Source of the DNA: an uncultured cyanobacterium | GTDB taxonomy: Bacteria; Acidobacteriota; Vicinamibacteria; Vicinamibacterales; UBA2999 | Direction: 5' to 3' | Assembly (NCBI GenBank): GCA_963833135.1 | Contig: CAWHWW010000010.1 | Coordinates: 16,822-80,821, forward strand | Length of the DNA: 64,000 bases | Part shown: positions 7,524-16,018 of the stretch, one piece after another | How positions within the stretch are numbered: position 1 is the stretch's first letter | Layout: each line of letters starts with the position of its first letter | The notes under the pieces: model-generated | The model's database searches: none | What the model saw: the letters and a program-made list of their open reading frames with translations, nothing else | What the model was told of the DNA's origin: nothing | Position numbers and translations under genes: made by a program

Positions 7524-8974
7524 ATGGCGTTACTCGCAATCGCCCTGATGTACGCCTCGTTCATCGGCATCGGCTGGCTGGCATCGCGGCGGCTGGCGGC
7601 GGCGCGGTGTCGACGCGTTCATGGTCGCCGGGCGGTCGATGCCGCTGTGGCTGGCGACGTTCACCATGACCGCGACGTGGGTGGACGGCGGCTACCTGCT
7701 CGGCACCGCCGAGGGCGTCTACCGGTCGAGCCTGGCGAGCGGTCTGCAGGGCGGCGTCTGCTTCGGCATCAGCCTGATCATCGGCGGCCTGTTCTTCGCG
7801 CGGCGGATGCGCGCGCTCGAGTTCCACACGCTGATCGATCCGTTCGAGGCGCGCTTCGGCGCGAAGTGGGCGGTGGTGCTGGCGATGCCGGCGGTCCTCG
7901 CCGAAATGTTCTGGAGCGCGGAGCTGCTGGTCGCGCTCGGCTCGACCTTCGGCGTCGTCCTCGATCTGGACCTGGCGACCGGCATTGTGATCTCGGCGGC
8001 GGTGGTCACGCTCTACACGATGGCCGGCGGGATGTGGGCGGTCGCCTACACCGACGCGTTCCAGCTGCTGCTGGTCGGCGTCGGCCTCGCCGCGGCGTTG
8101 CCGTATGCGCTGTCGGCGGCCGGCGGCATCAGCCATGCGTGGTCGGTGTTACCAGGCGGCGCCGCAGCCAGGCTGTCGCTGACTCGACCGTGTCGTGGTG
8201 GGACGTCAGCATCATGCTGATGCTCGGCGGCGTGCCGTGGAACTGTTACTTCCAGCGCGTGCTGTCGTGCCGCTCGCCGGGCGCGGCGCAGGCGCACTCG
8301 ATCCTTTCCGGCCTGCATGACGATCGCGCTGACGATTCCGCCGCTGCTGATGGGCCTGGTCGCGTTCGCGTATGCGTGGCCGCCGGCGCTGGCGGATCGT
8401 CTCGCGGCGCAGCCCGCGGATGCGCTGCCGTTGATCTTCCGCTACGTGACGCCGCCGGTGATCGGCCTGCTCGGTCTCGCCGCGATCGTCGGCGCCGTGA
8501 CGTCGAGTTTCTCGTCGTCGATCCTTTCGGCTGGATCGATGTTCGCGTGGAACGTCTACCGCCGCCTGCTCCAGCCCGGACATGTCGGTCCGCGGCCTGA
8601 CGATGGTGATGCGGATCGCGATTGCGCTCCTCGGAGTCGGCGCGGTGTGGATGGCGCTGAAGGTCCAGAGCGTGCAGGCGCTGTGGTTCTTCACGAGCGA
8701 TCTCGTCTTCGTGCTGCTGTTCCCGCAGCTGGTCGCGGCGCTCTTCGACAGCAAGGCGAACCTGATCGGATCGATGGCGGCGTTCAGCGTGTCGCTGATC
8801 CTGCGATTGGGCGGCGGAGAGCCGCTGTTCGGGATTCCGGCGTTGATTCCGTATCCGGAATGGGTGCCGTTCAAGACGATCGCGGCGTCCGCCGGTCATG
8901 ATCCTGCTCCCGGCGGTATCACGTTTGACGCAGGACTACTTACCGGCGCGGCCGCTCAGGGAAGTAGCCAGTAG
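7524..8974 (+). CDS. sodium:solute symporter family transporter (choline-transporter-like), frameshifted
   Basis: MALLAIALMYASFIGIGWLASRR, WLATFTMTATWVDGGYLLGTAEGVY, TLYTMAGGMWAVAYTDAFQLLL, LGGVPWNCYFQRVLS, AIVGAVTSSFSSSILSAGSMF. Pieces lie in ORFs 7434.., 7621.., 8317.., 8582... Confidence 0.75.
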
Positions 8975-9064
8975 CCAGTAGCCGGTAGCCAGAAGCACTC
9001 GTCCTCGGTCTTCCTGGCTTCTGGCTCTGGCACTGGCATCTGGCTACTGGCTACTGGCTACTAC
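8963..9064. repeat. Long imperfect hairpin built from tandem heptamers: (AGTAGCC)n arm and (GGCTACT/GGCTTCT)n arm
   Basis: Read directly: AGTAGCCAGTAGCCAGTAGCCGGTAGCCAGAAGC ... GCTTCTGGCTCTGGCACTGGCATCTGGCTACTGGCTACTGGCTACT. It fills the spacer between convergent stops 8974 (+) and 9061 (-) and is a candidate bidirectional terminator. Confidence 0.7.
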
Positions 9065-11727
9065 TGTGGCGTGTAATGCAGCCACATCTCCGGCGTGATG
9101 TTGTCCCACTCACACATCGGCGGACGCGCCAGCCAGTGCTGGCCCACATCGCCGCCGATCGGCGCGCCCGGCGGCGCCGGTGACGGCGGCACGATGCGCG
9201 CCGACAGGGCGTCGTTCATCGGGCGCTCGAGGAAGCGCTTGATGTCGGCGGCCATCAGCGTGCGATGCGCGCGCTCGCTCTCCGCCTGGGAACCCTGTGC
9301 GGCGGCGCCGCCGTTCGCGGTACGCAGCGCGGGCGGCGAGGCGCTCGAGCTTGAGCGAGGCGATCGCGCGCACCTGCGCATTCGGCGACGCGGCGGCGAG
9401 CCACATCACGCGATCGACCAGCACGCGTTCCTCGGCGCGACGCACTTCCGCTTCGTAGGGCCCGGACGTCGGCTGATCGAACGTCGCCCGGACCAGCCTG
9501 TCGATCACTTCGCCGAGGCCCGGCAGGGACTGATCGACGGCGTTCTGCGTGACCATGCGGGCGGCGCGATCCGGCTGCAGGATGAAGCCGATCGTGACGT
9601 CGGCGGCGATCGACGCCGGGTTCACCGGATCGAAGCCTTCACCGGTCGTGCGCGGGAACAGCTCACGGTGCATGCCGTAGCCTGGCGGCCGCGGCGGCAG
9701 CAGATCGAGGATTCGCTTCGGAATGGTCAGCTCCGACGGCTTCAACGTGGCGGTCAGCGCGTCGATCGCCTTGCGCTGCATCTCGCCGCTGACCCATTCG
9801 AGCGGCGTGCGGTTGTCGCCGCGCATCGCGTAGACGAAGTCCTGTCCGCCGATCGCCGATGCGGTGCTCTCGACCGCGTAGCGGTGATACATGTAGATCG
9901 GCACCAGCGGCTCTTCGATCATCACCGTCGGCACGCCGGTGCGAATGGTGTTGGTGCCGATCCGATCGAGCGCGGCGCGCCGGACCTTCATCAGCCGCGT
10001 CAACTCGTCGGTCTGGTTGGCGCCGTTGGTCCACTGATCGGCCTTCGGATGAATGTCGATGTCCTGGTTCGTGTAGTAGCGGTAAGTCCGCCGGTCCACG
10101 CATCGGCGATGATCTTGTCGAGCGCGGCTTCGTCATTCCCGCGATTCGGGAACTCGCGGTAGCCCCAGTTGATGGCGATCTTGTCCCACTCGCCGATGTT
10201 CTGGTGATAGGCCTTCGAGAGATCGATGGTGCCGTCGGCCTTCAGCTCGGCGAGCGCCGTCGGGTAGTCCATCACCGAGATCCAGCCCTTGCTGCTGTCG
10301 TAGTAGTTGTGGCCGAGACCGAGCGTGTGGCCGACTTCGTGCGCCGACAACTGGCGGATGCGCTGCCAGCGCGGTCTCGTACAGCACCGCCGGCCGCTCG
10401 GTGCCGTTGGTGTAGGGCGAGAGCAGACCCTTCGAAGATCATGTAGTCCTGGCGGTCGCGCAGCGAGCCGAGCGTGACGGTGGCCTTGATGATCTCGCCG
10501 GTGCGCGGATCCGAGACCGAGCCGCCCGAGCTCCAGCCGCGCGTCGAGCGATGGACCCAGTTGATCATGTTGTAGCGGATGTCCATCGGATCGGCGTCCG
10601 TCGGGCAGGATGTCGACCTTGAACGCGTTGCGGAACCCGGCGGCTTCGAACGCCTTGTCCCACCACATCGCGCCTTCGACCAGCGCCTTCTTGACGTCTT
10701 CCGGCGCGCCGGAATCCACCCAGTACTGAATCGGCTTGATCGGTTCGCTCATCGCCGCGCCCGGGTCCTTCTTCTGGAGCCGATGACGACGGATGTAGCG
10801 GAACTGGATCGACTCGGCGATCGGCTGGCTGAAATCGACGAACGTCGCGCCGCCGTAGCCGGCGCGCGGATCGTCGAGCCGCGGCGTGTAACCGGTGATG
10901 TCCGGCAACTCGACGAACGACACGTGCTCGCGCATCGTCACGGCCTCGGGCGACGGCGTCACGCTGCCGACCGATCCGGAGAACAGGCCGCCGCCGAACC
11001 CGCCACCGCCGCCACCACCGCCGGTCGCGCCGATCGGCGCGGGGCCCTGGGTCGGACCGCCACCGCCGCCGCCACCACCGCCGGTCTGCTCGTTGACGAA
11101 CGTCAACGTCATGTCGACTTCGGTGTTCTTCGGGAAGTTGCGCGTGTTGGGCAGGTAGAACGCGCTGCGCGTGCGATCGACGCGGTAGTTGCCGGGCCGC
11201 AGGCTGGACGCCGCATTCACGACATCGCGCAGGAAGAAATCGGTGGCGTCGACGAGGACGCGCCCGGATGATTCAGCCGCGACCGCGAATCCCCAGAGGA
11301 TCGACTTGGCAAACGAGTCCTCGACCGACTTCCTCTCGAGCGGATTCTTGCTGCTCGATCGGAACGACTGGTTCGGCTGCACCAGGAAGACGCGCGGGCC
11401 GACGCGCTGGAACTGCACCAGCCGTCCGCCGCCGCGGCCGGATCCGCGATCGAGACCGATGTCGTTCGAGCCGAGGCCGGCAGACAGCCCGCTCGAAAAC
11501 AGGAAGTCGGTATCGAACCGGGAGATCTCGAGGAACATGCCGCCGGTGCGCTCATCCCAGTAGAGCGGGAAGTAACCGTCGAGCTTCTTCAGGCCCGCCG
11601 TGCGATCTTCGACCGACTGCGGCGCGGCCGGACGCTGTTGCTGCTGCGCGGGTTGCCGGGCTTCGAGCACCGGACCTGCAAGCAGCAGCGTACTGATCAG
11701 TAAAGCAGATTGTTTCAACATGACCAC
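9061..11727 (-). CDS. secreted zinc metalloprotease (DUF4953/DUF5117-type architecture), frameshifted
   Basis: Signal peptide [26 protein letters not shown] in [18 protein letters not shown]. Gly tract [33 protein letters not shown]. Pieces lie in ORFs 10000..11727, 10272..10586, 9110..10099, 9061..9381. Confidence 0.75.
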
Positions 11728-11770
11728 TCCTGGAGAGTGGTCATTCTAACGTTGCGCGGCCGGAGTGCGG

Positions 11771-12267
11771 TCAGCTCTTTCGGCGTTTCGCGGCCGGACG
11801 CGGCTTCGGTCCACCGCCGCCGACGTTGCGGGCCAGCACTGCTTTTCGCTCGAGCCTGGTCGCGGTTCGCTTCGCCGCCGTTTTCGCGACCTTGCCGGTC
11901 TTGGCTTTCCCGCCGGTTTTCTTCGCCGTTCGCGGTCTTGGCCGCCTTGGCTTCGCCGCCTTGGCCTTGCGCGACTTTCGCCGGCGCGGCTTTCCTCGCG
12001 ATGTTCTGCTTCGTCGCACGCGACACCGGCTGCGTCTCTGCGTCCGGCTGCGGTCGTATCCTCGATCGCATTGTCTTCAGACGTCTCCGAATCGCGGTCC
12101 GGTTCGTTTGCCGATCCGAGCCGCGGCATCTGGTCCTTCTTCACCGGCTGCCAGGTGTGCTGCGATCCGATCGAGCGCTGCTCGCGCAGCTCGCGCGCGG
12201 CATCGTCCTGCGTCAGGCGTCCGCGCTGCGTGTACATCCCGGGATTCACTTTGTTCTGTCTGCTCAT
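11771..12267 (-). CDS. small unrecognised protein with Lys/Ala/Arg-rich (histone-H1-like) C-terminal tail, probably frameshifted
   Basis: ATG at 12267 overlaps the upstream stop (ATGA). N-terminus MSRQNKVNPGMYTQRGRLTQDDAARELREQRSIGSQHTWQPVKKDQMPRLG. An alternative frame (ORF 11771..12019) gives KSRKAKAAKPRRPRPRTAKKTGGKAKTGKVAKTAAKR. The end point depends on which frame is real. Confidence 0.4.
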
Positions 12268-13428
12268 ATGCGGAACCTTAGCAGTGCGCCAACGCCACCG
12301 ACATCGGCCAGCAGCGATGGCGTCCTCGATGAACCTGATGCGAGCCGCGGTCTGCTGCGCGCGCGTGATCAATTCGTCCGACAGCTTCAGCGCGCGCTTC
12401 GTCGGTCTGCTCCGCCGGGATTCGACGTCTCCACCTGCACGTCGCCGGGCGCCGCGTCGTCCGGCAGTTTCTGGACCGGCTTCAGCGTTTCCGGCGAGCC
12501 GGTGATGATCAACTCGTCGACCTGACCGAGCTGGAACGCCGACAGCGTCGCTTCGGGTCCGGCGACGCCGAGGCCGCCGCTCTGCCACGCGTCCATCAGC
12601 TCCTGGACCTTTTCGACGTCGGTCTCCGCATCCTTCTCGCGCAACGCCGCCATCGTCCGCTGCGACGAAGCTGCCGCTCTCGCCATCTTCATGCGGCGCC
12701 GATCTCGACGATCTTGTCGGCGAGCTGCTTGCGGCAGCTGCTCGCGCAGGATCGGCATCGCCACTTCGTCGCCGGCGACGACGATCTGGTGGATGTCTTC
12801 TTCGCGCACGATCTTGTCGAGCGTGTCGACGACTTCCTTGATGTGATGCATGTGGAAGTTGTCGGCGCGGCGCTGATAGCGCGCCTGCGACCAGCCGCCC
12901 TTCGAGGTGCGGCGGGTCTTCTCGCCGACGATCTTTTCTTCGCGCTCGGTGCTCGGCGCCGAACACGAAGATGCGCGCCTTGTTGGTGTCGAGCATCACG
13001 GCCGCGTAGCGCGGGTAGTTCTCGACGAGCTTGGCGAGCGGATAGAGATGCGGCGACCGAGCTGATGAACAGCGAGTGCTCGTCGATCGGCGCTTCAAGC
13101 GGGATGGCTTCGAACAGGTCCGAGCCGCTGCACGCGAAGATCGCGAGTGCCTGCCCCGGCGGCTGTTGTCCTTGTTCTCGAGGTACTCCTGGATGCGCGC
13201 GGCGTCCTTGTCGAAGCTCTCGCGCTCGGGGGACTCGCTCGGGCAGCGCCTTTCGCGCGCTCGTTGAAGACCTTGCGCACGAACTGTTCGTAGCTCCTCG
13301 CGGCCGTTCTGGTTGGTCGTGAGGCTGAGGTAGAGGCTGATGACAGGGAACGGACTGGGCTCCAGCGCGGCCAGAGTTTCCATTCGCTGACTCAAAGACT
13401 GCACGGATACGGGTGTCGACTCGGCCAT
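12264..13428 (-). CDS. bacterial eRF1-like protein (baeRF/Vms1-type release-factor fold), frameshifted
   Basis: MAESTPVSVQSLSQRMETLAALEPSPFPVISLYLSL, ALAIFACSGSDLFEAIPLEAPIDEHSLFISS, PHLYPLAKLVENYPRYAAVMLDTNKARIFVFG. Hand translation of 12880-12960 (-) gives EEKIVGEKTRRTSKGGWSQARYQRRADNFHMHHIKEVVDTL, so the GGQ-loop position reads GGWSQ. C-terminus QSGGLGVAGPEATLSAFQLGQVDELIITG. Confidence 0.6.
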
Positions 13429-13524
13429 ACCGCGATAACTGCAAGGGCGGTGCCGCCGCCGAGAGGATGGCTGCCCGGCGCGGCCTGCACGAAACTCGAC
13501 CAGCTCGAGCCGGCGCGGCAGGTC

Positions 13525-14135
13525 TCAGGCGCGCACGTACGGGATCTCCTTGAACATCGGCAGCCCGGCGGCGCGGATGATGCTCGAGCAGCCCGCGCCG
13601 CTCGTGGAACTCCTTGCTGTCGCGATCGATCACGATCGTGTTCGGATAGAGCGGCGCCAGCCGCCGGAACTCGAAGTCGATCAGCCGGAAGCGCCGCACC
13701 ATGTTCTCGACTTCTTCGTGATCGCGGTTGCGCAGGCGGATGTGCTTTTCGATCGTGTCGGTGCTCGACGTCAGCACGATGACCTTGTCGGGATTCCAGG
13801 CATCGCCGATCGACAGGACCTGGCGCAGCGCCGGATGGTCGATCAGCGGATATTCCGCCATGTGCGCTTCGAGCGTGATGCGCGCGCCTTCGAAAAAGAT
13901 CACGCGGCTGCGGGCCATCGTGCAGCGCGGCGTCCCGGTAGTTGGCGTCGTAGAGCCGCGCAAAGTATTCGGTGACACCGACGGAGTTGACGCCGGCGGC
14001 GATGTCTTCGAGGACGCTGGGATCCCAGACGCCCTTCTCGCCCTCGCCGTACGAGCCGTTGTGATAGAGGTCGGCGAGCTGGCGGACGAGCGTGCTCTTC
14101 CCGACACCCGGTCCGCCGACAATGGCTACTCGCAC
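13525..14135 (-). CDS. small P-loop NTPase (AAA/nucleoside-kinase-like), frameshifted
   Basis: GTG 14135. Walker A MRVAIVGGPGVGKSTLVRQLADLY. The protein continues in ORF 12689..14122 (VIFFEGARITLEAHMAEYPLIDHPALRQVLSIGDAWNPDKVIVLTSSTDTIEKHIRLRNRDHEEVENMVRRF). Hand-derived stop TGA at 13525-13527. Confidence 0.55.
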
Positions 14136-14157
14136 ACCGCGATATTACTGCGGCTCT

Positions 14158-14183
14158 TCCGTGTAGTCCGTGTAATCCGTGGA
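14158..14183. repeat. Tandem TCCGTGTA/ATCCGTG words, same word family as the termini of the 44404..44605 element
   Basis: Read directly: TCCGTGTAGTCCGTGTAATCCGTGG. Compare GTCCGTAGTCCGTGTAATCCGTGAAATCTGTGGAT at 44571-44605. Confidence 0.6.
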
Positions 14184-14541
14184 CTACTTGCGAGTCACAT
14201 GCGCCGACACGGCCAGCCACTGCCGTTGCGGCGCGCCCAGACGTCCGTGTAGCGGCCGCCGCTTTCGCGCCGTCGCCGTCGTGTAGCTGCGTTCGCGCGT
14301 GGATGATCGCGAAATCGCCCATCAGCCGCACGTTGACGTCGTGCGCCTGGAGGTTCCGAATGGTCACCGGCCTGCCGTCTGCTGCAGGAACGCCTTGCGA
14401 TCGATCAGCGACCGTCGGCATCGAGCAGAGAAGTCGTCAGAGAGGATTTCTCGAAGCGCTTCACGTTCGAGTGCTGCACCGACTGGATGTAATCGTCGTT
14501 CAACTGTCGCCAGCAGGTCGACGGTCGCTGGTCGTGCGCAT
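14184..14541 (-). CDS. SnoaL-like/DUF4440 (NTF2-fold) protein, frameshifted
   Basis: Pieces CWRQLNDDYIQSVQHSNVKRFE (tail of ORF 14405..15379), TIRNLQAHDVNVRLMGDFAIIHARTQLHDGDG (ORF 13900..14421) and hand-read GGRYTDVWARRNG. Start (ATG 14541) and stop are approximate. Confidence 0.45.
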
Positions 14542-16018
14542 GTGGAGTCCTCCGAACCGGTCGATCGCGATCCTTGCCGCCTGCCACAGCAGCATCACCG
14601 CGTAGGCGCGCCAGGGCCGCCAGGCTTCGCTGCGGCGCTCGAGCTCGCGCGCGCTGCAGTCGCCGGCCATCCGCCTCAGCACGAGATCGCCCGACGGGAA
14701 CGCATCCGGCTCGTTGAGCGCGCGCATCGCGACGTACTGCGCCGTCCAGTCGCCGATTCCCGGAATGGCGCGCAGCGACTCGAGCGTCGAGACGCCGTCG
14801 AAGACGACGCCGCCGTCGCGCACGGCCCGCGCCAGCGCTCGCAAGGTTCGCGCCCGTGCAGAGATGATGCCGGCCTCTTCGAGCGGCGCATCGGCGAGTT
14901 GATCGGGAGTTGGGAACAGGCGATTGAGCGTCGAGTGGCCCGATTGCCCGCTCGCACTCCGCACTCGATTGGCGTGCCCCATCGCTCGGCGATCCGTCCG
15001 GCGATCGTCGTCGCGGCCTTCGACCGAGATCTGCTGGCCAAGGATCGCGCGCACGGTGATCTCGAAGGGATCCCACGCGCCTGGCGTCCGAATGCCGGCA
15101 TGCGCGGCGGCGGCGCGGCGCAGCAGAGCGATCGCCCGACAACTGCTGCGCGATCAGCGACGGGTCGGCGCCGAGGTCGAACATCCGCCGGACGCGCTCG
15201 ACGATCGTGAGCAGCGCGCGCGGATCGCCGAACTGCACGTCGAGCATCAGCGCCGAGCCCTCGCCGGCCGGCGCAATCGCGATCGTGCCCGTCGTGCTCG
15301 CCGATCGCGATCGTTCGCTGGTAGCGGTCGGCTTCGACGAGCTCGACGCCCGGCGTGGCGCGGGCGGCCAGGAAGCCAATCACCTGCGGCCAGTCGTAGG
15401 GCGGCCGGTAGGCGAGGCGGAAGCGATAGCCGTCCGAACCGTCCGATCGCTTGCGCGAGAGCTTGCGCAGCTCGGTCGGCGTTCGCGAAAAAGTCCTGCG
15501 GCATTTCGCCGTTGAAGCGGCGCAGGCTGCCGAATCCGGCGGCAAACGCGACCTGCGCGATCGGCAGCTGCGTTTCGTCGAGCAGCTTCTTGGCGAAGTG
15601 CACGCGCCGGGTCAGCGCGACCTCGATCGGCGTCGCGCCGAGATGCTGCACGAACAGCCGGCGCAGGTGGCGCGCCGTCACGCCGAGGCGATCGGCCAGC
15701 TGCCTCGACGCCCTCGCGATCGAGCGCGCCTTCGCCGATGAGACGCAGCCCGCGCGACACCACGCTCGAGGTGCCCGACCAGGCCGGCGTGCCCGGCGAT
15801 GCTTCGGGACGGCAACGCAGGCACGGACGGAATCCGGCCGCCTGCGCGGCCGCCGCGGTCGCGTAGTAGCGGACGTTCTCGTCCTTCGGCGATCGCGCCG
15901 GGCAGATCGGCCGGCAATAGATGCGCGTGCTGGTGACGGCGATGAAGAACTTGCCGTCGAACCGCGCATCGCGGGAGCGCCGCGCGCGATCGCAGACCCG
16001 CCGGTCGAGCTCCATCAC
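14500..16018 (-). CDS. Ada-type regulator fused to DNA-3-methyladenine glycosylase II (Ada Zn-domain + AraC HTH + AlkA), frameshifted
   Basis: FFIAVTSTRIYCRPICPARSPKDENVRYYATAAAAQAAGFRPCLRCRPE (Ada Zn site). LADRLGVTARHLRRLFVQHLGATPIEVALTRRVHFAKKLL (AraC HTH). IPGIGDWTAQYVAMRALNEPDAFPSGDLVLRR and WRPWRAYAVMLLW (HhH-GPD/AlkA). Pieces lie in ORFs 15380.., 15247.., 14676.., 14500... Confidence 0.8.

What the first reader, a model, noticed from the sequence alone, without database searches (positions are those of the whole stretch)
11771..14135. Bacterial eRF1-like gene translationally coupled to a lysine-rich small protein, next to a small P-loop NTPase
12264-13428 encodes a release-factor-fold (eRF1/Vms1-like) protein in which the GGQ-loop position reads SKGGWSQARYQRR. 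Its hand-derived stop overlaps (ATGA at 12264-12267) the start of a small gene. That gene has a conserved-looking N-terminus (MSRQNKVNPGMYTQRGRLTQDDAARELREQ) followed by a KAAK/KPRR-rich histone-H1-like tail, which could bind nucleic acid or the ribosome. A 200-aa Walker-A NTPase lies 97 nt upstream on the same strand. Bacterial eRF1 homologs (baeRF families) have been proposed on comparative-genomic grounds to act in ribosome/tRNA-directed rescue or conflict. As far as I know they are essentially uncharacterised experimentally.
Basis: partly seen in the sequence, partly recalled or inferred. Interest (0 to 1): 0.6.

Follow-up and report, generated by a model that had tools for sequence, protein, structure and literature searches.

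The report
Balon-like release-factor homologue with small partner
A soil acidobacterium (Vicinamibacterales) carries a gene for a bacterial cousin of the archaeal/eukaryotic release factor eRF1, related to the ribosome-hibernation factor Balon but keeping a release-type GG-x-SQ loop. It is almost always followed by a small, disordered, unnamed partner gene; the neighbouring kinase-like NTPase is an unrelated neighbour, and the many frameshifts here look like assembly errors.

Summary
On the minus strand lie a Walker-A protein (14135-13525), a 96-nt gap, an eRF1-fold gene (13428-12264) and a small gene (12267-11771) that starts in an ATGA overlap with the eRF1-like stop.

None of the three is an intact ORF in the window; the eRF1-like gene needs about 13 frame corrections. 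Flanking genes carry the same kind of indels, coding-phase switches are 2-3 times more frequent across the window than in relatives, and dN/dS is normal. I therefore read the breaks as assembly errors, about 85% likely.

The stitched protein is Pfam baeRF_family10 (E 1.4e-27). Its closest solved structures are the mycobacterial Balon homologues (TM 0.72-0.76). The GGWSQARxQR loop is invariant down to 44% identity.

The small protein has no family. It is predicted disordered, with a conserved N-terminal motif and tails that vary by lineage (basic, acidic or membrane-anchored). It occurs in exactly the same 11 of 41 related genomes as the baeRF, and directly downstream of one in 40 of 42 loci found across 185,579 species.

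The NTPase resembles the NadR kinase domain. It is present in 24 of 25 genus genomes whether or not the baeRF is there, so it is not part of the module.

My best reading is a Balon-related ribosomal A-site factor that may be hydrolysis-competent, working with a disordered co-factor. The function is inferred, not shown.

The parts
12264..13428 (-). eRF1-fold gene of Pfam baeRF_family10 (Balon-related, about 383-387 aa when intact). In the window it is broken by 12 single-base insertions and one 2-base deletion.
   Evidence: Three-frame reading. Pfam PF18854 at 97.2 bits, E 1.4e-27, plus eRF1_3 at residues 272-387. Intact orthologues. Indel map. dN/dS 0.125 after removing the indels. Fold search gives Msmeg1130/Balon at TM 0.72-0.76.
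12885..12899 (-). GGWSQ, the GGQ-equivalent loop, followed by ARYQRR at the start of a long helix.
   Evidence: Translation. G175 G176 W177 S178 Q179 A180 R181 Q183 R184 are invariant in 18 sequences down to 44% identity. In the AF2 model it is a loop before helix 179-208.
12264..12267 (-). ATGA overlap: the stop of the baeRF and the start of the small gene (translational coupling).
   Evidence: Sequence. The same 4-nt overlap occurs in L016, L015, L017, L020, L052 and L053.
11771..12267 (-). Small partner gene (about 150-165 aa when intact). Its parts are an N-terminal motif, an acidic stretch, a K/A/T/R-rich basic tail and a C-terminal motif. At least one frameshift lies between about 12060 and 12004.
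   Evidence: There are 560 metagenome homologues, all 'hypothetical' and without a Pfam family. AF2 predicts disorder except helix 20-33.
12133..12267 (-). Conserved N-terminal motif of the small protein (MSRQNKVNPGMYTQRGRLTQDDAARELREQRSIGSQHTWQPVKKD). M1 S2 N8 Y12 G16 R17 are invariant across the wider family.
   Evidence: This motif alone finds the same 11 of 41 genomes as the baeRF.
11774..11848 (-). C-terminal motif RKAVLARNVGGGGPKPRPAAKRRKS, shared by the closest subfamily of the small protein.
13525..14135 (-). 200-aa Walker-A protein resembling the NadR ribosylnicotinamide-kinase domain (AAA_28). It is a core gene of the genus and is NOT part of the module. Two frame breaks, at about 13908 and 13586.
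   Evidence: AAA_28 scores 24.7-25.1 bits, below the 27 cut-off. Matches to NadR models and to PDB 8x7f_A at E 1.2e-4. Present in 24 of 25 genus genomes.
13429..13524 (-). 96-nt spacer between the NTPase stop and the baeRF start.
   Evidence: No promoter- or terminator-like site was found on this strand. In relatives other genes are inserted at this point.

Best explanation
The locus holds a two-gene cassette typical of Vicinamibacterales (Acidobacteriota).

Gene 1 is a three-domain aeRF1-fold protein of Pfam baeRF_family10. It is a relative of the Balon/Msmeg1130/Rv2629 ribosome hibernation factors. Unlike them, it keeps a strictly conserved release-factor-type loop, GGWSQ, followed by an Arg-rich helix.

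Gene 2 is translationally coupled through an ATGA overlap. It encodes a small intrinsically disordered protein with a conserved N-terminal motif of 30-45 aa. Its tail differs by lineage: here it is K/A-rich and basic, elsewhere acidic or ending in a membrane helix.

Most likely mechanism (inferred): the large protein enters the A site of idle or stalled ribosomes as Balon and eRF1 do, and places its GGxSQ loop at the peptidyl-transferase centre. It either only blocks the ribosome or, as I lean, also releases the peptidyl-tRNA, acting as a rescue or termination-like step before storage. The small protein would act as its co-factor: the conserved N-motif contacts the factor or the ribosome, and the variable tail supplies rRNA or membrane affinity.

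The adjacent P-loop protein is an unrelated NadR-kinase-like housekeeping neighbour. The roughly 16 frame breaks in the three genes are assembly indel errors, not biology.
For: Shown:
- Family and fold. Pfam baeRF_family10 at 97 bits against a cut-off of 27.1. The best NCBIfam, PDB-sequence and Foldseek matches are Rv2629 and Msmeg1130 (Balon), then aRF1/eRF1 and Pelota. The AF2 model has pLDDT 76 and pTM 0.70.
- Loop. GGWSQARxQR is invariant in 18 homologues down to 44% identity. Family 10 was already noted as keeping the catalytic Gln (PMC6514570).
- Coupling. ATGA overlap.
- Co-occurrence. The N-motif and the baeRF are found in the identical 11 of 41 related genomes, and are adjacent in each. 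40 of 42 loci from a scan of 185,579 species have a baeRF directly upstream on the same strand. Adjacency survives rearrangement: the small gene lies upstream in G207 and is convergent in G183.
- The partner is predicted disordered, pLDDT 57 with a single helix.
- The NTPase is independent.
- Error reading of the frameshifts. The indels also hit the flanking SnoaL, Ada/AlkA, metalloprotease and ADOP permease genes. GC3-phase switches run at 1.77 per kb, against 0.50-0.79 in six relatives' loci, and are spread over the window. dN/dS is 0.125, against 0.118-0.141 for intact pairs. The genome is 23 contigs yet only 80.7% complete.

Inferred by analogy:
- A-site binding, from the Balon structures (PMC10901736).
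- Small basic or tail-anchored proteins acting on idle ribosomes. Examples are a CCDC124-80S-eRF1 complex, listed as entry 6zme, and the YqjD/ElaB/YgaM preprint 10.1101/2024.08.16.608256.
Against: - There is no experimental datum for any family-10 protein. Ribosome binding, hydrolysis and a physical contact between the two proteins are all inferred.
- The Trp-Ser between GG and Q departs from GGQ. The characterised bacterial relatives (Balon and its homologues) are non-catalytic.
- No eRF1_1/NIKS-type domain is detected by Pfam.
- GGWSQ-type baeRFs without the partner exist elsewhere in the phylum (L040, L042, L043, L051). The partner also occurs alone (G078, L058). It persists beside internally deleted baeRF remnants as well (L055/L066, L078, G006). 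The two are therefore not strictly interdependent.
- rpoB on another contig is intact, with a 1451-aa open frame.
Confidence: 0.6

Rival explanations
1. Pure hibernation factor. The protein works exactly like Balon: it plugs the A site of idle ribosomes without any chemistry. The conserved GGWSQ-ARYQRR element is kept only as a PTC/23S-rRNA contact, and the small basic protein plays the part that RaiA/HPF plays beside Balon.
For: The closest characterised relatives by sequence and fold are Msmeg1130, Rv2629 and Balon, all non-catalytic (PMC10901736). Other family-10 subtypes in the phylum sit next to a UspA-type stress gene. Balon genes are typically in stress operons next to a second ribosome-binding factor.
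Against: Balon-type loops are poorly conserved and variable in length (PMC6514570). Here the loop is invariant to the residue, including the Gln. Scores fall far below the NCBIfam hibernation-factor cut-offs, 87 against 320 and 57 against 480. The partner shows no similarity to HPF/RaiA.
Confidence: 0.28
2. Three-gene NTPase-baeRF-small operon. The P-loop protein would load or recycle the factor, as eRF3, Hbs1 or EF-Tu do for aeRF1-type proteins.
For: Same strand, with a 96-nt gap in the window. Directly adjacent in four same-genus genomes.
Against: The NTPase is present in 24 of 25 genus genomes, 16 of which lack the baeRF. It is absent from G031 and G037, which have the pair. Other genes are inserted between them in G007, G015, G021, G003 and L052. 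It lies within 3 kb in only 8 of 42 loci. Its only resemblance beyond the P-loop is to the NadR ribosylnicotinamide-kinase domain, not to translational GTPases.
Confidence: 0.04
3. The local genes are true pseudogenes. This strain has lost the cassette, and its neighbours, through real frameshift mutations.
For: There are about 13 frame breaks in 1.16 kb. rpoB elsewhere in the genome is intact. Natural decay of this gene does occur in relatives, as internal-deletion remnants in G006, L055/L066 and L078.
Against: The same ±1 indels hit the highly conserved NTPase and four other flanking genes. Phase switches are elevated over most of the 64 kb. The substitution pattern shows undiminished purifying selection, dN/dS 0.125. 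Sister long-read MAG contigs show similar isolated frameshifts (L052/L064, L080, L084, L101).
Confidence: 0.12
4. Conflict or toxin-antitoxin-like pair. The eRF1-like protein would be a translation-arresting effector and the small coupled protein its neutraliser, or the reverse, acting in phage defence or inter-bacterial conflict.
For: A two-gene, translationally coupled cassette with patchy distribution, found in 9 of 25 genomes of the genus. Burroughs and Aravind proposed conflict-driven origins for baeRF-1.
Against: No PADLOC defence model matches the baeRF or the small protein. The neighbourhood is housekeeping rather than an island, and the cassette sits at a syntenic position between the NTPase and the metalloprotease. 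dN/dS is low and the pair appears to co-diverge vertically within Vicinamibacterales. The partner's tail is too variable for a tight antitoxin. No mobile-element genes lie nearby.
Confidence: 0.05

Closest known systems
Balon and its mycobacterial homologues Msmeg1130 and Rv2629 (ribosome hibernation factors; PDB 8rd8, 8v9j, 8v9k; PMC10901736)
   Same: A bacterial branch of the aeRF1 superfamily with the same three-domain fold (Foldseek E 3e-20, TM 0.72-0.76 to 8v9j_z). These are the best sequence hits in the PDB and in NCBIfam. A similar size of about 360-385 aa and the same C-terminal ...GVGAxLR[FYW] ending.
   Different: Balon-type proteins lack a GGQ-like motif, whereas this family has an invariant GGWSQ. 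Scores fall far below the NCBIfam family cut-offs (87 against 320; 57 against 480). Identity is only 13-21%. The usual neighbour is not RaiA/HPF but an unnamed disordered protein. EF-Tu dependence is unknown.
Classical aRF1/eRF1 (TIGR03676; Pfam eRF1_1/2/3)
   Same: Fold. A GG..Q loop followed by a helix rich in Arg (GGQSAxRFxRLR compared with GGWSQARYQRR). eRF1_3 and eRF1_2 are detected weakly.
   Different: W-S lies between GG and Q. There is no eRF1_1/NIKS domain hit. The score is 43 bits against a 234.7 cut-off. The host has the normal bacterial release-factor system (established knowledge, not tested here).
Vms1/ANKZF1 and the prokaryotic VLRF1 families (acVLRF1, Pfam PF18859, NCBIfam NF041024)
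   Same: The GGxSQ form of the catalytic loop, described for aVLRF-1 and acVLRF-1 (PMC6514570). PF18859 scores 53.6 bits, above its 27.1 cut-off. NCBI names one close homologue 'Vms1/Ankzf1 family peptidyl-tRNA hydrolase'.
   Different: baeRF_family10 scores much higher. acVLRF1 lacks the N-terminal domain, while this protein has all three. NF041024 scores 25.8 against a 125 cut-off.
Small basic or tail-anchored ribosome-silencing proteins (CCDC124/Lso2 with eRF1 on idle 80S; YqjD/ElaB/YgaM). Analogy only.
   Same: A short, largely disordered protein with a basic tail or a C-terminal membrane anchor, encoded together with an A-site factor. A CCDC124-80S-eRF1 complex exists (entry 6zme, listed). 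C-tail-anchored ribosome inactivators are described in preprint 10.1101/2024.08.16.608256.
   Different: No sequence or fold similarity was shown. Ribosome binding of the acidobacterial protein is untested.
NadR C-terminal ribosylnicotinamide kinase domain (Pfam AAA_28), for the NTPase only
   Same: Walker A plus about 130 aligned residues (PDB 8x7f_A at E 1.2e-4, TIGR01526 at E 4.5e-5).
   Different: Below every curated cut-off. It is a stand-alone 200-aa protein and its substrate is unknown.

Membership tests
Pfam baeRF_family10 (PF18854) | HMM score above the gathering threshold on the central RNase-H-fold domain | tested here: met
   97.2 bits against 27.1 for the stitched window protein, residues 126-262. 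The family is also precomputed on all 120 listed homologues.
Pfam baeRF_family10 (PF18854) | Conserved glutamine in the catalytic loop (the property noted for family 10 in PMC6514570) | tested here: met
   GGWSQ is invariant in 18 sequences down to 44% identity. Other family-10 subtypes in the phylum have G-T-D-x-x-R-S-Q, and one subtype has no Q.
Balon-type ribosome hibernation factors (NCBIfam NF052289 Rv2629_fam_RHF; NF052288 MSMEG_1130_fam_RHF) | Score above the curated equivalog cut-off | tested here: not met
   87.2 against 320 and 57.0 against 480 bits.
Balon-type ribosome hibernation factors | Three-domain aeRF1-like fold superposable on ribosome-bound Balon homologues | tested here: met
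   Foldseek: 8v9j_z at E 3.4e-20, TM 0.72/0.76; 8v9k_z at TM 0.60; 8rd8_B at TM 0.61.
Balon-type ribosome hibernation factors | Absence of the GGQ and NIKS motifs (as described in PMC10901736) | tested here: not met
   A GGQ-type loop (GGWSQ) is present and invariant. NIKS could not be located, as there is no eRF1_1 hit.
Balon-type ribosome hibernation factors | Binds the ribosomal A site with EF-Tu and inhibits translation | not testable with these tools
   Needs ribosome pelleting, cryo-EM or in-vitro translation.
Classical aRF1/eRF1 (TIGR03676; Pfam eRF1_1, eRF1_2, eRF1_3) | [quoted passage not shown] | tested here: not met
   TIGR03676 scores 43.4 against 234.7. eRF1_3 scores 25.2 against 25.8 and eRF1_2 scores 22.5 against 27.1. 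There is no eRF1_1 hit. The loop reads GGWSQ, not GGQ.
VLRF1 / Vms1-like peptidyl-tRNA hydrolases (Pfam acVLRF1 PF18859; NCBIfam NF041024) | GGxSQ loop | tested here: met
   GGWSQ. The motif definition comes from PMC6514570.
VLRF1 / Vms1-like peptidyl-tRNA hydrolases (Pfam acVLRF1 PF18859; NCBIfam NF041024) | This family is the best-scoring model, and the architecture lacks the N-terminal codon-recognition-type domain | tested here: not met
   PF18859 scores 53.6 bits, below the 97.2 bits of PF18854. NF041024 scores 25.8 against 125. The model shows a full N domain, residues 1-125.
Peptidyl-tRNA hydrolase activity (any release-factor family) | Gln-dependent release of the nascent chain on the ribosome | not testable with these tools
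   A biochemical assay is required.
NadR-RNK / AAA_28 P-loop kinases (the NTPase) | Pfam AAA_28 score above the gathering threshold | tested here: not met
   24.7-25.1 against 27 bits. The Walker A GGPGVGKST is present. The best PDB profile hit is NadR 8x7f_A at E 1.2e-4.
Known anti-phage defence systems (PADLOC-DB 2.0) | Any protein of the module matches a defence model | tested here: not met
   No hit for the baeRF or the small protein. The NTPase has only P-loop-level hits at E 0.003-0.008.

The most novel reading that the evidence does not exclude
Family-10 baeRFs of Vicinamibacterales would be genuine aeRF1-type peptidyl-tRNA hydrolases working in bacteria, an archaeal-style release or rescue activity next to RF1/RF2. 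The coupled disordered protein would be an adaptor: its conserved N-terminal motif docks on the factor or ribosome, and its interchangeable tail (basic, acidic or membrane-anchored) selects which ribosome population is rescued or silenced. This would be a functional intermediate between release factor and hibernation factor.
Probability: 0.2. Interest if true: 0.75.

Novelty: new variant of a known kind. Interest (0 to 1): 0.45.

Why it matters
Balon (2024) showed that bacterial eRF1 homologues can silence ribosomes, but every characterised member has lost the catalytic loop. This Vicinamibacterales clade is abundant in soil metagenomes: 4,773 homologues at E <= 1e-5 among the 8,000 candidates scored. 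It keeps an invariant GG-x-SQ loop and comes with a conserved, unnamed, disordered partner.

That makes a long-standing question directly testable: do any bacteria use an archaeal-type factor to release or rescue nascent chains, or is the loop only a docking element? It also points to a second, undescribed component to look for in cryo-EM maps of dormant ribosomes.

For annotation, the small protein family is currently 'hypothetical' with no Pfam or NCBIfam model. I found no description of it, or of its pairing with baeRF genes, in the papers searched.

Tried and rejected
The indels could not be checked against reads, and expression could not be examined.
2. Promoter and terminator scan of 11500-14400: no promoter-like site, and terminator-like sites at chance level and only on the wrong strand. 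Uninformative.
3. Pfam, NCBIfam and PADLOC on the small protein: no family. AF2 gave a disordered model, pLDDT 57, so a fold search would be meaningless and was not run.
4. Looked for natural baeRF-small fusions among the 120 best homologues. The longer entries checked (P0160; L046) are N-terminal over-extensions, and no C-terminal fusion was seen.
5. The search for related loci with the 14-sequence motif alignment failed because no stretch was conserved enough. It worked with six closer sequences, so the 42 loci are biased towards the 'RLTxDDxARE' subtype.
6. Tested whether all PF18854 hits in the phylum carry the partner. They do not. The top-scoring GTDxxRSQ subtype is followed by a UspA-like gene instead, and four GGWSQ-type genes have other neighbours.
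7. Tested the idea of genome-wide uniform indel noise. rpoB is intact, so the noise is regional. It is window-wide, not genome-uniform.
8. The earlier scan notes were used as leads only. A sequence look-up of the small protein in them found nothing.
Full report
**What is in the sequence.** The window is high-GC (about 65%). It is part of contig C10 of a 6.4-Mb assembly in 23 contigs with only 80.7% estimated completeness. Three genes lie on the minus strand of 11771-14135:
- a Walker-A protein, from GTG 14135 to TGA 13527-13525;
- after 96 nt, an eRF1-like gene, from ATG 13428 to TGA 12266-12264;
- a small gene whose ATG (12267-12265) forms an ATGA overlap with that stop.

The quoted strings are all present. 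TSKGGWSQARYQRRAD has GGWSQ at 12899-12885. MSRQNKVNPGMYTQRGRLTQDDAARELREQRSIGSQ is confirmed. So is the K/A/R-rich tail ending RKAVLARNVGGGGPKPRPAAKRRKS*.

**The genes are broken in the window, and why I read that as assembly error.** No intact ORF covers any of the three genes. I aligned the region to the closest intact orthologous locus (L016, genome G013, 87% DNA identity).
- The baeRF has 12 single-base insertions and one 2-base deletion.
- The NTPase has two net frame breaks.
- The small gene has at least one.

The same ±1 events continue into the flanking SnoaL-like, Ada/AlkA-like and metalloprotease genes. An ADOP permease 5 kb away is also split over at least three frames.

A GC3-phase tracker counts 1.77 phase switches per kb in the window, against 0.50-0.79 in six relatives' loci. 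The excess is spread over most of the 64 kb.

After removing the indels, dN/dS against G013 is 0.125. That is indistinguishable from intact-intact pairs, at 0.118-0.141.

Many sister genomes found later are long-read 'MFD' MAGs with flye-style contig names, and some of them show isolated frameshifts in the same gene.

Against a uniform-noise picture, rpoB on another contig is intact. I put assembly error at about 85% and true local pseudogenisation at about 12%.

**What the large gene is.** The stitched 387-aa protein scores as follows on Pfam:
- baeRF_family10: 97.2 bits, E 1.4e-27, cut-off 27.1, residues 126-262;
- baeRF_family2: 64 bits;
- acVLRF1: 53.6 bits;
- eRF1_3: weak, over residues 272-387.

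Intact orthologues of 64-81% identity occur in seven other genomes of the same genus. An eighth, G006, keeps only an internally deleted remnant. Orthologues of 43-47% identity occur in two other families of the order.

For an intact orthologue, the NCBIfam scores are Rv2629-family 87 bits (cut-off 320), MSMEG_1130-family 57 (480), aRF1 43 (234.7) and acVLRF1 26 (125). All are related, and none reaches its cut-off.

The best PDB sequences are Msmeg1130 (E 6e-7), Rv2629 and aRF1.

An AF2 model built on 18 homologues (pLDDT 76, pTM 0.70) gives a three-domain protein. Its best structural matches are ribosome-bound Msmeg1130 (E 3e-20, TM 0.72/0.76). Next come aRF1, Rv2629, P. urativorans Balon, eRF1 and Pelota/Dom34.

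The GGWSQ loop immediately precedes the long helix 179-208, as GGQ does in eRF1. G175 G176 W177 S178 Q179 A180 R181 Q183 R184 are invariant down to 44% identity.

The family is abundant in soil metagenomes: 4,773 proteins at E <= 1e-5 among the 8,000 candidates scored. They are named 'peptide subunit release factor 1 (eRF1)' by JGI, and in one case 'Vms1/Ankzf1 family peptidyl-tRNA hydrolase' by NCBI.

**What is known about the family.** Burroughs and Aravind (PMC6514570) defined the baeRF-1 clade. [quoted passage not shown] The only neighbourhood they describe in the text is with HPF. [quoted passage not shown]

Helena-Bueno et al. (PMC10901736) then showed that the bacterial aeRF1 homologues Balon, Msmeg1130 and Rv2629 occupy the A site of idle ribosomes together with EF-Tu. 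They act as hibernation factors and lack GGQ and NIKS.

It remains true for family 10.

**The small gene is the real partner.** It has no Pfam or NCBIfam family. There are 560 metagenome homologues, all 'hypothetical'.

The close subfamily has four parts:
- an N-terminal motif, MSRQNKVNPGMYTQRGRLTQDDAARELKRQRSIGSxHTWQP;
- an acidic stretch;
- a K/A/T-rich basic tract;
- a C-terminal motif, RKAVLARNVGGGGxKPRxxAKRRKS.

Only the N-motif is general. Tails are acidic in G014, G015, G021 and G031. They carry a C-terminal hydrophobic helix in G003 and G281. Another subclade ends in ...RPRSAPEE.

More distant members read MSSKNNVNPDHYKxAGRERQGE... M1 S2 N8 Y12 G16 R17 are invariant across both types.

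AF2 predicts disorder (pLDDT 57, pTM 0.17) apart from one helix at residues 20-33.

Co-occurrence with the baeRF:
- A profile of the N-motif finds one copy in exactly the 11 of 41 related genomes that have the baeRF, each adjacent to it, and none in the other 30.
- In a 401-genome phylum sample, 10 genomes have the motif. In six of them it lies next to a family-10 baeRF, including one in reversed order (G207) and one convergent (G183). One genome carries it on another contig, and two to three cases are weak or stand-alone.
- A pattern scan of 185,579 species returned 42 loci, almost all Vicinamibacterales/Acidobacteriota MAGs. 40 of them have a baeRF homologue ending 0-225 nt upstream on the same strand. 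This scan is biased towards the close motif subtype.
- Contexts from metagenome contigs agree. L053 and L054 hold the pair with entirely different neighbours. L056 (Blastocatellales) and L057 hold the pair with a gap of 57-97 nt. L058 holds the small gene alone.

The link is not obligatory. Four GGWSQ-type baeRFs elsewhere in the phylum have other neighbours. The small gene also survives next to internally deleted baeRF remnants.

**The NTPase is not part of it.** It is a 200-202-aa protein, 80-91% identical across the genus. Apart from its P-loop it weakly resembles the ribosylnicotinamide-kinase domain of NadR:
- AAA_28 at 25 bits against a cut-off of 27;
- TIGR01526 at E 4.5e-5;
- PDB 8x7f_A at E 1.2e-4.

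It is present once in 24 of 25 genus genomes, 16 of which lack the baeRF. It is absent from G031 and G037, which have the pair.

Other genes lie between it and the baeRF in several genomes: a small exported protein in G007 and G015, 2.5-4.8 kb in G021 and G003, and TPR plus sulfatase genes in L052. It lies within 3 kb in 8 of 42 loci. In this genus the cassette simply sits between the NTPase and a DUF5117/DUF4953 metalloprotease.

**Mechanism.** Shown here:
- family, fold and invariant loop;
- translational coupling;
- tight co-occurrence and adjacency of the two genes;
- predicted disorder and tail variability of the partner.

Inferred: the factor binds the ribosomal A site like its nearest structural relatives, and the conserved GGxSQ-Arg-helix reaches the peptidyl-transferase centre.

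Whether it hydrolyses peptidyl-tRNA is open. I lean to hydrolysis competence, at roughly 40-45% against about 30% for a pure blocker. Non-catalytic baeRF loops drift in sequence and length, whereas this one is frozen.

The partner is most simply a co-factor. Its N-motif would dock on the factor or ribosome, and its tail would add rRNA or membrane affinity. The analogies are small basic proteins found with eRF1 on idle 80S (entry 6zme) and C-tail-anchored ribosome inactivators. These are analogies, not homologies.

A conflict or toxin-antitoxin reading is not excluded. It finds no support in PADLOC or in the neighbourhood.

**Novelty and verdict.** The large gene is a member of a named Pfam family whose special loop was pointed out in 2019, and its clade has a characterised function since 2024. 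The conserved disordered partner and its modular tails are not described in the papers I could search.

I tested that claim independently here.

This is a new variant of a known kind. It is moderately interesting and directly testable.

Noticed in passing
window 8300-15600 and most of the window: There is a dense scatter of single-base indels relative to intact orthologous loci, and 2-3 times more GC3-phase switches than in relatives. The SnoaL-like, Ada/AlkA-like, DUF5117/DUF4953 metalloprotease and ADOP permease genes are all frame-broken. rpoB on contig C16 is intact. Any ORF-based reading of this window needs frame correction.
   Followed up: partly
G006 (L014), L055/L066, L078: In three other genomes the baeRF is reduced to an in-frame or fragmentary remnant, keeping roughly residues 1-35/80 and 307/331-383 and lacking the catalytic middle domain. 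The small partner gene stays intact, which suggests the partner can be kept without a functional factor.
   Followed up: partly
L026-L031 (other Acidobacteriota families): The highest-scoring PF18854 proteins in the phylum have a longer loop, G-[TS]-D-x-x-R-S-Q-M-x-x-Q-R-K. They are followed by a universal-stress-protein-like gene (MLPI..ILAPTDFSD...) instead of the small partner. A third subtype (GGYGGYEE) has no glutamine.
   Followed up: no
P0122-P0140, P0130, P0152; L059 1249-1740: Distant small-partner proteins carry a second conserved motif, ...TSRKAGxxSxxQKxxxxRHPxxPAPxSxxVPGAFGREG. It also occurs as a separate small ORF: P0130, P0152, and possibly the ORF between the partner and the baeRF in G207.
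   Followed up: no
window 8955-9064: Relative to G013, the spacer after the metalloprotease stop contains 22-38-nt insertions made of heptamer repeats, (GTAGCCA)n / (GGCTACT)n. This is the hairpin already flagged by another first-stage note.
   Followed up: no
L063, L064, L070, L073, L090 (record titles): Several MAG records carrying this Vicinamibacterales-type cassette are labelled Acidimicrobiia, Burkholderiales or Hyphomonadaceae in their titles. One of these contigs (1,199,902 bases) has the same length and matching coordinates as contig C1 of G011, which the genome search groups in the window's own genus. The labels are probably binning or labelling errors.
   Followed up: no
L006 1531-1890; L019 8258-8638: In G007 and G015 a roughly 120-aa exported protein (…SKLDFTLxNRTGVxIxELYVSPDEADDWEEDVLGRDVL…CDWDLKIKDEDGDEIEW…) is inserted between the NTPase and the baeRF.
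   Followed up: no
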